Source: Escherichia coli
GTDB taxonomy: Bacteria > Pseudomonadota > Gammaproteobacteria > Enterobacterales > Enterobacteriaceae
DNA length: 64,000 nt
Assembly: GCF_003334765.1 (NCBI RefSeq)
Contig: NZ_QOWT01000004.1
Strand: one strand, 5' to 3'
Numbering within the stretch: position 1 is the stretch's first letter; the number at the start of each line of letters is the position of its first letter. Of the stretch, positions 21,096-25,076 are shown piece by piece. The position numbers were made by a program, and so were the translations under genes. The notes below the pieces were generated by a model that did no database searches, was not told the DNA's origin, and saw only the letters and a list, made by a program, of their open reading frames with translations.

Positions 21096-21860
<765 letters not shown>

Positions 21861-21954
21861 GTTTCTGAACAACTCACGTTGCTGAGCAGAAAAATGCGAT
21901 TTAACCAAAAAGCCTGCTGTACACTTAAGAAACAAGAAGGTGTAAGGAGGCGTT

Positions 21955-22488
21955 ATGAAAACGCGTATTCATGTTGTGCAGGGTGATATTACCAAACTGG
22001 CCGTTGATGTGATTGTGAATGCGGCTAATCCGTCATTAATGGGAGGCGGCGGCGTCGATGGGGCCATTCATCGCGCAGCGGGTCCGGCCCTGCTGGATGC
22101 TTGTTTAAAAGTCAGGCAACAGCAGGGCGATTGCCCTACGGGGCATGCCGTTATTACGCTTGCAGGCGATCTTCCCGCTAAAGCCGTAGTGCACACCGTC
22201 GGGCCAGTCTGGCGTGGTGGTGAACAAAACGAAGACCAGCTTTTGCAGGATGCCTATCTCAATAGCCTACGACTGGTGGCGGCAAACAGCTATACGTCAG
22301 TGGCTTTTCCTGCAATCAGTACTGGGGTTTATGGTTACCCTCGTGCGGCAGCGGCTGAAATCGCAGTAAAAACCGTTTCAGAATTTATTACCCGTCACGC
22401 TTTACCCGAACAGGTATACTTTGTCTGTTATGATGAAGAAAACGCCCACCTCTACGAAAGACTCCTTACCCAACAAGGAGATGAATGA
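21955..22488 (+). CDS. ymdB: Macrodomain protein YmdB (O-acetyl-ADP-ribose deacetylase; RNase III regulator)
   Basis: 177-aa ORF with macro-domain motifs ([23 protein letters not shown]). Confidence 0.9.
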
Positions 22489-22489
22489 T

Positions 22490-23911
22490 TTGCCCCGGCT
22501 GGCGAGCGCGGTGCTGCCACTGTGTTCGCAACATCCCGGTCAGTGTGGCCTTTTTCCTCTGGAGAAAAGTCTGGATGCGTTTGCCGCCCGGTATCGTCTG
22601 GCCGAAATGGCAGAGCATACGCTCGATGTTCAGTATTACATCTGGCAGGACGATATGTCGGGTCGGTTACTGTTTTCCGCCCTGTTAGCCGCAGCAAAGC
22701 GTGGCGTTCGCGTCCGTTTGTTGCTGGACGACAACAATACGCCCGGACTTGACGACATTTTACGCTTGCTTGACAGTCATCCACGCATTGAAGTCCGGCT
22801 TTTTAATCCTTTCTCGTTTCGCTTGCTGCGTCCGCTTGGTTATATCACCGACTTTTCCCGTCTTAATCGCCGTATGCACAATAAAAGTTTCACTGTCGAT
22901 GGCGTGGTGACCCTGGTGGGAGGACGAAATATTGGTGATGCCTATTTTGGAGCAGGGGAGGAGCCACTTTTTTCGGATTTAGATGTCATGGCAATAGGAC
23001 CCGTGGTAGAGGACGTTGCCGATGATTTCGCCCGCTACTGGTATTGCAAATCGGTTTCACCCTTACAGCAGGTGCTGGATGTCCCGGAGGGTGAAATGGC
23101 GGATCGCATCGAGTTACCCGCCTCCTGGCATAACGATGCCATGACGCATCGTTATTTACGCAAAATGGAATCCAGTCCATTTATAAATCATCTGGTTGAT
23201 GGAACATTGCCGCTTATCTGGGCGAAGACACGTTTATTAAGTGATGATCCGGCGAAAGGGGAGGGCAAGGCAAAACGGCATTCACTGTTACCGCAGCGCC
23301 TGTTCGATATCATGGGCTCACCCAGTGAACGCATCGATATTATCTCTTCCTATTTTGTACCGACACGCGCAGGTGTGGCGCAACTCTTACGGATGGTGAG
23401 AAAAGGGGTAAAGATTGCGATCCTAACCAATTCTCTTGCCGCTAACGATGTTGCTGTCGTCCATGCCGGATACGCGCGCTGGCGCAAAAAATTGCTCCGC
23501 TATGGCGTGGAATTATATGAACTCAAGCCGACGCGTGAACAAAGTAGTACGTTACACGATCGCGGCATAACCGGTAATTCCGGAGCCAGCCTGCATGCTA
23601 AAACCTTTAGCATCGATGGTAAAACGGTGTTTATCGGCTCTTTCAATTTCGATCCGCGTTCAACATTGCTCAATACTGAAATGGGCTTCGTGATAGAGAG
23701 CGAAACGCTGGCACAGTTAATTGATAAACGCTTTATTCAGAGCCAGTATGATGCGGCCTGGCAGCTCCGTCTGGACAGGTGGGGACGGATCAACTGGGTT
23801 GATCGTCATGCAAAGAAAGAGATTATTCTCAAAAAAGAACCCGCCACCAGTTTCTGGAAGCGGGTTATGGTCAGACTGGCGTCGATATTGCCCGTGGAAT
23901 GGTTATTGTAA
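22490..23911 (+). CDS. clsC: Cardiolipin synthase C (phospholipase D family, two HKD motifs)
   Basis: Two HxK(x)4D motifs (HNKSFTVDG and HAKTFSIDG). Start placed at the TTG at 22490, 2 nt after the ymdB stop, to give the 473-aa length I recall; an in-frame ATG at 22481 would give 476 aa, so the start is uncertain by a few codons. Confidence 0.85.
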   Translation: MPRLASAVLPLCSQHPGQCGLFPLEKSLDAFAARYRLAEMAEHTLDVQYYIWQDDMSGRLLFSALLAAAKRGVRVRLLLDDNNTPGLDDILRLLDSHPRIEVRLFNPFSFRLLRPLGYITDFSRLNRRMHNKSFTVDGVVTLVGGRNIGDAYFGAGEEPLFSDLDVMAIGPVVEDVADDFARYWYCKSVSPLQQVLDVPEGEMADRIELPASWHNDAMTHRYLRKMESSPFINHLVDGTLPLIWAKTRLLSDDPAKGEGKAKRHSLLPQRLFDIMGSPSERIDIISSYFVPTRAGVAQLLRMVRKGVKIAILTNSLAANDVAVVHAGYARWRKKLLRYGVELYELKPTREQSSTLHDRGITGNSGASLHAKTFSIDGKTVFIGSFNFDPRSTLLNTEMGFVIESETLAQLIDKRFIQSQYDAAWQLRLDRWGRINWVDRHAKKEIILKKEPATSFWKRVMVRLASILPVEWLL

Positions 23912-23918
23912 ATGTGGC

Positions 23919-25076
23919 TTAACGGGCTGGTGCTTTATCGTTCTCACGCTTAACAACCGGTTTACCAGAGAACAAAAACTTCAGTAACGGGATGCGCAAA
24001 TGAATTTCATACAGAATTATCGCAATCCCTACTACAAATATCAGGCCACAGAGAAAACCAAGCCAGTTGGAGGTGATGTGCGGTGTAATGTATGCGCCGA
24101 AAAACAGCGTTAACGGGTGGTGAACCAGATAGATAAACAGCGATGCGTTAACAAAATAAGTCACCCGCGCTGACTGGAAGTTAAGCAAACGGTGGCCAAA
24201 GGAGAAGACCACATTCACCATCCACAGACCGAGGACCATGGTGATCACCGACTCGGTTTCGTACATCCAGGCATCGCCACTGCCATAGCGCTGGTTGAGT
24301 AAATAAGCGACAAACGCCAATGCTGCTGCAAGGGTACAGCCACGAGACGGCGTGGTAAACAAGGCTTTAAGATGAGGGAAAATGAAAGCCAGTGCGCCGA
24401 GGATAAAGAACGGCAAATAAAACAGCGTTTGCATGACAATAAAATTGAACATGCCATTACTCAGAATGGGCGGATACACAATAAAAATCGTTCTTCTTAT
24501 TACCGCATAACCGATGCCGAGGCATAAAAAAATCACCGATAGTTTTACCATCGAGAATTTTTTATTCGTTTTATCAGAATTTTCTAAATTATTTCTGATG
24601 CGCTTAAATATCCATACGCACAGCGTCGTCATGACCACTAACACCAGTAAAAACCACAGGTGTGATATTAATTCCCAGGCCAACGTATTATATTTGTCAT
24701 ACAATGACAGCCCAGGCCAACTTTCCGCTTTTCCTTTGACATATTGCAGCATAATAAATTGCGGTAATGTCAGTAGGGGGATGGCTGTTAACATCGGGAT
24801 ACCTACACGTTCGACACGTACTTTCCACCATTTTTTCAAGGGATAGCGTAAAAAAAGCATGTAGGAAAAGTAGCCGGATATAACGAAAAATACCTGCATG
24901 CGGAACGAGTGGATGAAGTCATTAAAAAGGGTCAGCCACAATGATGATTCGGCGCTATTCACATGCCATGTATGGCTCGAATAGATTAAAGAAATATGAA
25001 AAGGTATCCCTAACAACATCAGCCAGGCGCGGATGGAGTCGAGGAAATATTCACGTTGCGCGGGTACTGGGTTCAT
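23919..25076 (-). CDS. opgC: OPG (osmoregulated periplasmic glucan) succinyltransferase OpgC/MdoC
   Basis: 385-aa polytopic membrane acyltransferase-3-family ORF; convergent with clsC with only 7 bp between stop codons. Confidence 0.9.

What the first reader, a model, noticed from the sequence alone, without database searches (positions are those of the whole stretch)
21955..23911. ymdB-clsC coupling and ambiguous clsC start codon
clsC (PLD family, two HKD motifs seen) begins either at an ATG overlapping the last 8 nt of ymdB (22481) or at a TTG 2 nt after the ymdB stop (22490). Either way the two genes are translationally coupled, which fits the established finding that ClsC activity needs the macrodomain protein YmdB. 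The exact N-terminus cannot be decided from sequence alone.
Basis: partly seen in the sequence, partly recalled or inferred. Interest (0 to 1): 0.2.

Follow-up and report, generated by a model that had tools for sequence, protein, structure and literature searches.

The report
clsC start lies inside ymdB

Summary
The window is the E. coli csgBAC-ymdA-ymdB-clsC locus. They are ymdB 21955-22488, an in-frame ATG at 22481, a TTG at 22490, two HKD motifs and a clsC stop at 23911.

The list of candidate starts is incomplete. The clsC frame is open from 22370 and also holds ATG 22430 and ATG 22433.
- Curated K-12 uses TTG 22490 (473 aa).
- RefSeq/PGAP used ATG 22430 (493 aa) in all five other E. coli records I opened.

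Comparative evidence favours the distal ATGs as the conserved start.
- They are the only canonical start in Salmonella, Enterobacter, Lelliottia, Leclercia and Kosakonia.
- T-G at 22431-22432 is invariant in 19 species.
- The surrounding 22408-22447 is the best-conserved nucleotide block of ymdB.
- A relic of this block still sits upstream of clsC in Phytobacter, where ymdB is separate.

Published data point the same way. Tetracycline profiling put more reads at ATG 22433 than at the TTG, though the authors called it inconclusive. In vitro retapamulin profiling found no initiation on a fragment holding only ATG 22481 and TTG 22490.

The proximal start looks like a lineage-specific, coupling-dependent second entry point. 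Either way clsC expression depends on ymdB DNA in cis. This is ordinary biology, but a testable answer to an open question.

The parts
21943..21950 (+). Shine-Dalgarno sequence of ymdB (TAAGGAGG), 4 nt before the ATG
   Evidence: duplex with the 16S 3' end is -12.1 kcal/mol. The ymdB start is strongly detected in INRI-seq (150-320) and in vivo Ribo-RET (51) (PMC9825163 Table S2).
21955..22488 (+). ymdB coding sequence (177 aa, macrodomain O-acetyl-ADP-ribose deacetylase), stop TGA 22486-22488
   Evidence: NCBIfam NF001660 matches full length at 376 bits.
22408..22447 (+). Conserved nucleotide block inside ymdB (GAACAGGTATACTTTGTCTGTTATGATGAAGAAAACGCCC). It surrounds the distal clsC start codons and is the proposed SD-less initiation region of clsC.
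   Evidence: It holds the longest identical run between E. coli ymdB and 11 of 20 other species with overlapping genes, for example Salmonella 34 nt against a next-longest 12. Synonymous-site identity peaks at ymdB codons 153-164. Columns are invariant in a 19-species alignment. A relic of the block is retained upstream of clsC in Phytobacter.
22430..22435 (+). Distal clsC start codons ATG-ATG (codons -20 and -19 relative to the K-12 TTG). ATG 22430 gives 493 aa and ATG 22433 gives 492 aa.
   Evidence: PGAP start in all five non-K-12 E. coli records opened. TetRP alternative start at -57 = 22433, with read depth 0/30.1/16.1 against 0/0/5.7 at the TTG (PMC4909307 Table S2). It is the only canonical start in Salmonella and in the Enterobacter-type genera. 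T22431 and G22432 are invariant in 19 species.
22430..23911 (+). clsC coding sequence, long model (493 aa, 55.9 kDa). The short models start at 22481 (476 aa) or 22490 (473 aa, 53.7 kDa). Stop is TAA 23909-23911.
   Evidence: Two Pfam PLDc_2 domains.
22462..22467 (+). CTCCTT, the 5' arm of a 6-bp hairpin that pairs with the proximal Shine-Dalgarno sequence
   Evidence: -6.2 kcal/mol. Present only in Escherichia and weakened in E. albertii, so at most a minor contributor.
22475..22480 (+). Proximal Shine-Dalgarno AAGGAG, inside ymdB. It lies 0 nt before ATG 22481 and 9 nt before TTG 22490.
   Evidence: -8.5 kcal/mol duplex. It is changed to AAGGCG in E. albertii, which has also lost the TTG.
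22481..22483 (+). It overlaps the last 8 nt of ymdB.
   Evidence: It has no usable Shine-Dalgarno spacing, arises from the YmdB Asp-Glu codons GAT GAA, and is used by neither public annotation.
22490..22492 (+).
   Evidence: The aligned codon is ATG in five Citrobacter and is the only possible start in C. werkmanii. It is TTG in E. fergusonii and C. sedlakii, TTA in E. albertii and AAA in Salmonella. INRI-seq signal was 0 in 5 of 5 replicates.
22502..22529 (+). 12-bp hairpin in early clsC coding sequence, +13 to +40 from the TTG
   Evidence: -19.5 kcal/mol. Not conserved outside E. coli K-12-type sequences. It could hinder de novo 30S binding at the proximal site.
22877..22900 (+). First HKD motif (HNKSFTVD)
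23594..23617 (+). Second HKD motif (HAKTFSID)

Best explanation
clsC is expressed from signals embedded in the 3' end of ymdB, and there are two initiation zones.

**1. Distal AUG pair (22430/22433).** This is the evolutionarily conserved start and probably the principal one. It lies 56-59 nt inside ymdB in the +1 frame and has an AU-rich upstream region with no Shine-Dalgarno sequence. It gives a 493/492-aa ClsC whose first ~20 residues ([20 protein letters not shown]) are a hydrophilic tail read from the alternative frame of the YmdB C-terminus.

**2. Proximal site at the ymdB stop codon.** It consists of SD AAGGAG, then UUG 22490, with AUG 22481 alongside. It is a lineage-specific addition in Escherichia and Citrobacter. 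It does not recruit ribosomes on its own, so it can only be used by ribosomes that have just translated ymdB (termination-reinitiation coupling).

Both routes make ClsC production depend in cis on ymdB DNA or ymdB translation rather than on YmdB protein. This would explain why clsC clones that include ymdB make more ClsC.

**Shown:** the positions, the conservation pattern and the published profiling values.
**Inferred:** which site is used in E. coli and in what proportion, the reinitiation step, and the link to the cloning result.
For: **Distal start.**
- It is the only ATG/GTG/TTG available upstream of the conserved core in Salmonella and in Lelliottia, Leclercia, Enterobacter, Pseudescherichia, Superficieibacter, Kosakonia and Intestinirhabdus. 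All of these keep an intact clsC at 70-80% amino-acid identity.
- The clsC frame is open with an upstream ATG in 17 of 18 overlapping species. Synonymous reshuffling of ymdB predicts about 0.2-0.3. Control windows in the same relative frame give 0.43.
- The third base of YmdB codon 159 is T in 23 of 24 species (TAT 13/13, TTT 10/11), which preserves ATG or TTG at 22430. Other Tyr codons split roughly evenly.
- T22431 and G22432 are invariant in 19 species.
- 22408-22447 holds the longest identical run in ymdB for 11 of 20 species. This is not so where the genes do not overlap.
- Phytobacter keeps a relic of this block attached to clsC although its real ymdB ends 179 nt upstream.
- TetRP read depth was 0/30.1/16.1 at ATG 22433 against 0/0/5.7 at the TTG (PMC4909307).
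- PGAP uses ATG 22430.

**Proximal site.**
- A strong Shine-Dalgarno sequence lies 9 nt from the UUG.
- A start codon sits exactly one base after the ymdB stop in Escherichia, Citrobacter, and Cedecea/Buttiauxella.
- It is the only possible start in C. werkmanii, which has in-frame stops upstream.
- It is the curated K-12 start.

**No independent initiation at the proximal site.** A synthetic -30..+153 mRNA gave 0 footprints in 5 of 5 INRI-seq replicates at 316 CPM input (median 125). No alternative start was called at -9 (PMC9825163).

**Cis effect.** PMC8027125 and the title of Sawasato & Bogdanov 2024.
Against: - The TetRP signal was judged inconclusive by its authors, because the site lies inside a strongly translated upstream ORF.
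- The distal AUGs have no Shine-Dalgarno sequence. The best match is -3.8 kcal/mol, 13-16 nt away. They must also compete with ribosomes elongating on ymdB.
- Within the clade that has a proximal start, the open distal frame (about 4 of 5 independent lineages) is not significantly more than chance, and C. werkmanii has lost it. Continued use of the distal start in E. coli itself is therefore not proven.
- About 26% of annotated starts are undetected in INRI-seq, so a zero is weak evidence.
- In vivo Ribo-RET showed nothing at the TTG, but clsC is poorly expressed in exponential phase.
- Species in the comparisons are phylogenetically related, so the binomial arguments overstate independence.
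- I could not read Tan 2012 or Sawasato 2024, so I do not know which start their constructs carried.
Confidence: 0.5

Rival explanations
1. The curated K-12 model is right. ClsC starts only at UUG 22490 (473 aa), using SD AAGGAG, and is translated by termination-reinitiation coupling to ymdB. The upstream ATGs are silent by-products of the YmdB Tyr-Asp-Glu codons.
For: - NC_000913.3 annotation.
- Shine-Dalgarno strength and 9-nt spacing.
- The aligned codon is ATG in Citrobacter and is the only option in C. werkmanii.
- The homology to distant relatives begins at residue 1-4 of this model.
- The stop-N-start arrangement recurs in several lineages.
Against: - E. albertii (TTA) and Salmonella (AAA) have no start at this codon yet keep intact clsC.
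- This model does not explain the synonymous-site conservation and nucleotide block around 22430, nor the excess of open frames.
- INRI-seq gave 0 in 5 of 5 replicates and Ribo-RET gave 0.
- TetRP was higher at -57 than at the TTG.
Confidence: 0.2
2. ClsC starts at AUG 22481 (476 aa, MNDLPR...). Ribosomes terminating at UGA 22486 step back 5 nt and reinitiate there.
For: - AUG is a stronger start codon than UUG and lies within local scanning range of the stop codon (Adhin & van Duin model, from my own knowledge).
- It is conserved in E. coli, E. fergusonii and E. albertii, and is the only proximal option in E. albertii.
Against: - The Shine-Dalgarno spacing is 0 nt.
- The ATG arises from GAT GAA, and the Asp codon is GAT in 6 species and GAC in 6, showing no preference.
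- It is absent in Salmonella, C. sedlakii and C. werkmanii.
- No INRI-seq start was called at -9.
- Neither public annotation uses it.
Confidence: 0.05
3. The ymdB effect acts through the protein. YmdB binds or modifies ClsC, or acts through RNase III, and is required for ClsC activity or stability. The gene overlap merely ensures co-expression.
For: - Secondary reports of Tan et al. 2012 say near-wild-type cardiolipin was reached only with co-expression, and refer to a 'ClsC1-YmdB complex' (PMC4966929, PMC7156725, PMC4222554).
- ymdB and clsC are adjacent in most Enterobacteriaceae examined.
Against: - The title of Sawasato & Bogdanov 2024 says the ymdB product is not required for ClsC's substrate specificity.
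- The 2021 review describes an effect on ClsC levels, with mechanism unknown.
- ClsC relatives work without any YmdB in Agrobacterium (PMC4966929). ClsO-type relatives complement E. coli on their own (PMC12846801).
- Pantoea and Erwinia carry clsC with no ymdB upstream.
Confidence: 0.12
4. The conserved block 22408-22447 is not a translation start but another element. One option is an internal, sigma-S-type promoter: GGTATACTT at 22413-22421 resembles the KCTAYRCTT extended -10 consensus. It would drive clsC independently of ymdB, with translation starting at the proximal site or on a near-leaderless mRNA.
For: - TATACT (22415-22420) matches TATAAT at 5 of 6 positions and is conserved.
- Tyr155 is TAC in 18 of 18 species although it lies upstream of the ATG.
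- clsC is reported to be induced in stationary phase (PMC8027125).
Against: - The simple promoter scan did not call it.
- No conserved -35 is present, because conservation begins at 22408.
- This model does not explain why the +1 frame stays open or why NTG is invariant at 22430.
- I found no transcription-start data.
Confidence: 0.08

Closest known systems
E. coli K-12 ymdB (b1045) and clsC/ymdC (b1046), part of the reported ymdAB-clsC operon
   Same: Protein sequences in the window are 100% identical to K-12. The gene order csgBAC-ymdA-ymdB-clsC with convergent opgC is the same. ClsC is a PLD-type cardiolipin synthase reported to use PE plus PG.
   Different: Nothing differs in sequence. The difference lies in the gene model: K-12 uses 473 aa from TTG, RefSeq/PGAP uses 493 aa from ATG 22430, and TetRP suggested 492 aa from ATG 22433.
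ClsO, the surface-exposed outer-membrane lipoprotein cardiolipin synthase of Acinetobacter baumannii and its proteobacterial homologues (PMC12846801)
   Same: The paper names it as the closest relative of E. coli ClsC. It shares the two-HKD PLD core. Relatives at 47-53% identity in my set align from the TRLGRA..P..HPG motif onward.
   Different: In many (not all) of those 47-53% relatives the regex found a lipobox (L-A/L-G-C) about 19-22 residues upstream of the core, followed by an ALPSLEGR-type linker. E. coli ClsC has no lipobox and no hydrophobic signal in any of its possible N-termini. In Enterobacteriaceae that position is occupied by the 3' end of ymdB.
Translational coupling by termination-reinitiation at overlapping or abutting stop/start codons, e.g. 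trp operon UGAUG junctions and the Adhin & van Duin scanning model (from my own knowledge)
   Same: The upstream stop and the downstream start lie within a few bases of each other (AUGAAUGAUUUG). The downstream Shine-Dalgarno sequence lies inside the upstream ORF. The downstream site is inactive when isolated (INRI-seq).
   Different: Dependence on ymdB translation has not been measured. The better-conserved start is 56-59 nt upstream of the stop, which is not a reinitiation geometry.
In-frame alternative starts giving N-terminal proteoforms, and misannotated starts found by initiation-site profiling (Nakahigashi 2016, PMC4909307; Meydan 2019 preprint 10.1101/520783)
   Same: Two or more in-frame start candidates lie within 60 nt, public annotations disagree, and the TetRP signal falls at a non-annotated upstream ATG.
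   Different: The upstream start lies in another gene's coding sequence. This makes profiling ambiguous and puts the N-terminal tail under dual-coding constraint.

Membership tests
PLD-superfamily cardiolipin synthase (ClsC) | Two HxKxxxxD (HKD) motifs in two PLD-like domains | tested here: met
   Two Pfam PLDc_2 hits (E = 2e-27 and 4e-10). Motifs HNKSFTVD and HAKTFSID.
PLD-superfamily cardiolipin synthase (ClsC) | Identity with the experimentally studied E. coli ClsC (b1046) | tested here: met
   100% identity to NC_000913.3 clsC over residues 1-473. No ClsC-specific NCBIfam HMM reached its cut-off; only general Cls models matched, below cut-off.
PLD-superfamily cardiolipin synthase (ClsC) | Synthesis of cardiolipin from PE plus PG | not testable with these tools
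   Literature only (PMC8027125).
Macrodomain O-acetyl-ADP-ribose deacetylase (YmdB) | Full-length match to the equivalog model above its curated cut-off | tested here: met
   NF001660, 376 bits against a cut-off of 271, residues 1-177 of 177.
Translationally coupled gene pair (termination-reinitiation) | Upstream stop and downstream start overlap or lie within a few nucleotides | tested here: met
   ATG 22481 overlaps ymdB by 8 nt and TTG 22490 lies 1 nt after TGA. This is not met for the distal ATGs, which overlap by 56-59 nt.
Translationally coupled gene pair (termination-reinitiation) | The downstream ribosome-binding site lies in the upstream ORF and is weak or occluded on its own | tested here: met
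   - AAGGAG lies inside ymdB and pairs with CTCCTT (-6.2 kcal/mol).
- The start codon is UUG.
- A -19.5 kcal/mol hairpin begins at +13.
- Published INRI-seq gave 0 in 5 of 5 replicates.
- The hairpins are not conserved.
Translationally coupled gene pair (termination-reinitiation) | Downstream translation falls when upstream translation is stopped prematurely | not testable with these tools
   Needs a nonsense mutation in ymdB together with a ClsC reporter.
Translationally coupled gene pair (termination-reinitiation) | Both genes lie on one transcript | tested here: inconclusive
   The genes overlap or abut, so there is no intergenic space. The scan's terminator-like hits in 21300-24400 all lie inside coding sequence and were not checked further. 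An operon is reported only in a paper title (Kim & Kim 2017).
ClsO-type lipoprotein cardiolipin synthase | N-terminal lipoprotein signal peptide with a lipobox cysteine | tested here: not met
   No lipobox match in any E. coli N-terminus. The Cys in LPLC is not conserved in other enterobacteria. The lipobox Cys of distant homologues aligns about 20 residues upstream of the core.
Gene with an N-terminal extension relative to its curated model (upstream in-frame start) | The upstream in-frame start is conserved and the frame is kept open more often than chance | tested here: met
   across Enterobacteriaceae. Within the Escherichia/Citrobacter clade alone the excess is not significant.
Gene with an N-terminal extension relative to its curated model (upstream in-frame start) | Direct evidence of initiation or of the longer protein | tested here: inconclusive
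   A TetRP signal at -57 was reported but judged inconclusive by its authors. I found no proteomic evidence.

The most novel reading that the evidence does not exclude
The curated E. coli K-12 clsC model (473 aa, TTG) is about 20 codons too short. The real, conserved start and its initiation region lie inside ymdB. The long-puzzling 'YmdB requirement/amplification' of ClsC would then be largely a cis effect of including that region, because clsC-only clones built on the annotated ORF lack the native start. It would not be a function of YmdB protein. More broadly, enterobacterial ClsC would be a ClsO-type lipoprotein enzyme that lost its signal peptide and whose 5' end became overprinted on the 3' end of ymdB.
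Probability: 0.4. Interest if true: 0.5.

Novelty: already known. Interest (0 to 1): 0.33.

Why it matters
ClsC is one of three E. coli cardiolipin synthases. [quoted passage not shown]

If the functional start and ribosome-binding region lie inside ymdB, or if the proximal start works only through coupling, the answer is a cis expression effect. In that case expression constructs, deletion alleles (ymdB knockouts would disturb clsC) and the quoted 53.7-kDa mass all need revisiting.

The case also documents a standing disagreement between the curated K-12 annotation and the RefSeq/PGAP model, which used the longer start in all five other E. coli records I opened. Beyond that it is an ordinary overlapping gene pair.

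Tried and rejected
1. **Hairpins as the coupling switch.** The SD hairpin (-6.2 kcal/mol) and the downstream hairpin (-19.5 kcal/mol) exist in E. coli but are not conserved even in E. albertii or Citrobacter. I kept them only as possible minor contributors.
2. **ClsC as a cryptic lipoprotein via 'LPLC'.** Rejected. The Cys is not conserved, there is no lipobox match or hydrophobic h-region, and the true lipobox of ClsO-like relatives aligns about 20 residues upstream.
3. **Programmed +1 frameshift giving a YmdB-ClsC fusion.** This was prompted by 651-653-aa macro+PLD proteins in the database. They are ordinary frameshift variants at different early positions in ymdB. GAA-UGA offers no tRNA re-pairing. 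Rejected.
4. **Polymorphism within E. coli to discriminate the starts.** All candidates were invariant in the strains sampled, so this was uninformative.
5. **A ClsC-specific NCBIfam model to define the family N-terminus.** None passes its cut-off.
6. **Literature I could not obtain.** Tan et al. 2012 (PMC3478633), Sawasato & Bogdanov 2024 (PMC11678504), and the Meydan 2019 and Weaver 2019 supplements were not held. The TRAINSPOTTER N-terminomics supplements do not mention clsC. The cap on papers was reached.
7. **Terminator-like hits inside the genes.** These are coding-sequence inverted repeats and were not pursued.
Full report
**What is in the window.**
The region is the E. coli csgBAC-ymdA-ymdB-clsC locus, with opgC convergent downstream. 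The 2051-nt query covering it matches 5424 of 5426 complete E. coli genomes. Key positions are as follows.
- ymdB runs from ATG 21955 to TGA 22486-22488 (177 aa). It has a strong Shine-Dalgarno sequence, TAAGGAGG, at 21943-21950.
- ymdB matches the O-acetyl-ADP-ribose deacetylase equivalog NF001660 over its full length.
- clsC ends at TAA 23909-23911 and has two PLDc_2 domains.
- The two HKD motifs lie at 22877-22900 and 23594-23617.

**Check of the observation.**
ATG 22481 overlaps the last 8 nt of ymdB. TTG 22490 follows the stop after one base.

The clsC frame is already open from 22370, however. It holds TTG 22421, ATG 22430 and ATG 22433 as well.

Public annotations disagree.
- Curated K-12 (NC_000913.3, b1046) starts at the TTG, giving 473 aa and 53.7 kDa. 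This is the mass quoted in the lipid literature.
- RefSeq/PGAP started at ATG 22430 (493 aa) in all five other E. coli records I opened.
- Nobody uses ATG 22481.

**What sequence alone says about the proximal pair.**
AAGGAG (22475-22480) directly abuts ATG 22481, so it cannot serve as that codon's Shine-Dalgarno sequence. It lies 9 nt from TTG 22490, which is workable.

The Shine-Dalgarno sequence can pair with CTCCTT (22462-22467; -6.2 kcal/mol). A -19.5 kcal/mol hairpin starts 13 nt into the ORF. Neither structure is conserved beyond E. coli.

**Comparative evidence.**
I fetched 80 loci encoding ClsC relatives, and added Salmonella and E. fergusonii.

The codon aligned with the K-12 TTG varies between species:
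- ATG in five Citrobacter. In C. werkmanii it is the only possible start, because stops lie upstream.
- TTG in E. coli, E. fergusonii and C. sedlakii.
- TTA in E. albertii, which has also lost the Shine-Dalgarno sequence (AAGGCG).
- AAA in Salmonella.
- Not a start in Lelliottia, Leclercia, Enterobacter, Pseudescherichia, Superficieibacter, Kosakonia or Intestinirhabdus.

In the Salmonella and Enterobacter-type group, the only ATG/GTG/TTG upstream of the conserved core is the ATG or ATG pair homologous to 22430/22433.

Five measures show this site is under selection.
1. The clsC frame is open with an upstream ATG in 17 of 18 overlapping species. Synonymous reshuffling of ymdB predicts about 0.2-0.3. 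The same relative frame elsewhere in these genes gives 0.43.
2. Synonymous-site identity along ymdB peaks at codons 153-164. Codon 159 ends in T in 23 of 24 species, which preserves ATG or TTG at 22430. Other Tyr codons split evenly.
3. T22431 and G22432 are invariant in a 19-species alignment.
4. The longest identical run between E. coli ymdB and another species' ymdB falls in 22408-22447 for 11 of 20 overlapping species. In Salmonella it is 34 nt against a next-longest of 12. It does not fall there in Phytobacter or Mixta, where the genes do not overlap.
5. In Phytobacter the real ymdB ends 179 nt upstream. A relic of the ymdB 3' end, carrying this block and the ATG, is still attached to clsC.

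The caveat is that species are related. Within the clade that also has a proximal start, the excess of open frames is not significant.

**Experimental data in the literature.**
- *Tetracycline profiling.* This study listed ymdC with an alternative ATG at -57 from the annotated start, which is 22433. The predicted protein is MKKTPTSTK.... Read depth was 0/30.1/16.1 there against 0/0/5.7 at the TTG. The authors could not tell it apart from elongating ribosomes on the strongly expressed upstream gene (PMC4909307).
- *In vitro retapamulin profiling (INRI-seq).* The synthetic clsC mRNA spanned -30 to +153 around the TTG. It included ATG 22481 but not the distal ATGs. It gave zero footprints in five of five replicates at above-median abundance. 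ymdB gave 150-320. In vivo Ribo-RET was also zero at the TTG (PMC9825163). About a quarter of annotated starts are missed by this method, so the zero is supportive only.

**The ymdB connection.**
- Secondary reports of Tan et al. 2012 say near-normal cardiolipin needed co-expression with ymdB.
- A 2021 review describes increased ClsC levels from clones containing ymdB, 'by an unknown mechanism', and lists this as an open question.
- The title of a 2024 paper says the ymdB product is not required for ClsC's substrate specificity (text unavailable).
- An operon ymdAB-clsC is reported by title only.

**Interpretation.**
The conserved start of clsC in Enterobacteriaceae, and probably its principal start, is the distal AUG pair inside ymdB.

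A start codon placed one base after the ymdB stop has arisen in some lineages, E. coli among them. It appears to work only for ribosomes arriving from ymdB.

E. coli may therefore make a 493/492-aa form and a 473/476-aa form. I cannot say in what ratio.

In either case ClsC synthesis depends on ymdB sequence or ymdB translation in cis. This offers a simple explanation for the ymdB effect without invoking YmdB protein.

The rivals are a proximal-only start, a protein-level requirement for YmdB, and an internal promoter. They are scored separately in this report.

**Evolutionary context.**
- In many of the relatives at about 50% identity, a lipobox cysteine lies about 20 residues upstream of the conserved TRLGRA..P..HPG core. 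This matches the recently described outer-membrane lipoprotein synthase ClsO, whose closest E. coli relative is ClsC (PMC12846801).
- Erwiniaceae ClsC lacks the signal peptide but keeps part of the linker (M-A/T-E-A-F...).
- In Enterobacteriaceae that position is occupied by the 3' end of ymdB.

**Verdict.**

The locus, the operon and the start ambiguity are already in the literature, so this is known, ordinary biology. Its modest value is that a defined set of ymdB-synonymous point mutations would settle both the annotation conflict and the open question about ymdB.

Noticed in passing
window 23909-23919: clsC (+) and opgC (-) are convergent, with only 7 nt between their stop codons. There is no room for an intergenic terminator, so each transcript must end inside the other gene or the two share a bidirectional signal.
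   Followed up: no
window 22413-22421: GGTATACTT inside ymdB resembles the sigma-S extended -10 consensus and lies 9 nt upstream of ATG 22430. Tyr155 is TAC in 18 of 18 species although it lies upstream of the start. It could be an internal promoter or part of an SD-less ribosome-binding region.
   Followed up: partly
L019 (Phytobacter massiliensis) about 2880-2994: A relic of a ymdB 3' end forms a 24-codon mini-ORF (MANRQIYLSCYDNKNARRIDLAFR*). It ends TGA-G-ATG, one base before an in-frame clsC ATG, while the real ymdB ends 179 nt upstream. The stop-N-start geometry is thus kept even without a functional upstream gene.
   Followed up: partly
loci L042-L082 (distant ClsC relatives): Many of the relatives at 47-53% identity carry a lipoprotein signal (L-A/L-G-C) and a conserved ALPSLEGR..S linker ahead of the core, so they are ClsO-type. 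Erwiniaceae and Enterobacteriaceae have lost the signal.
   Followed up: partly
record NZ_CP081711.1 (hit H1): In E. coli strain AH21, clsC is interrupted by an IS5-like ISKpn26 family element. The query matched in two pieces, with a transposase annotated between them.
   Followed up: no
proteins P0001, P0002, P0013, P0014: Database entries of 651-653 aa fuse the macrodomain to ClsC in E. coli-like and Salmonella-like sequences. They arise from single-base frameshifts early in ymdB. They show that the clsC reading frame can stay open across much of ymdB in some strains.
   Followed up: yes
Five of the 5424-5427 matching places are on records labelled as plasmids, and 2 of 5426 complete E. coli genomes lack the locus.
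   Followed up: no
window 22502-22529: A 12-bp hairpin (-19.5 kcal/mol, three G-U pairs) lies in the first 40 nt of the short clsC ORF. It is specific to K-12-type E. coli sequences.
   Followed up: partly
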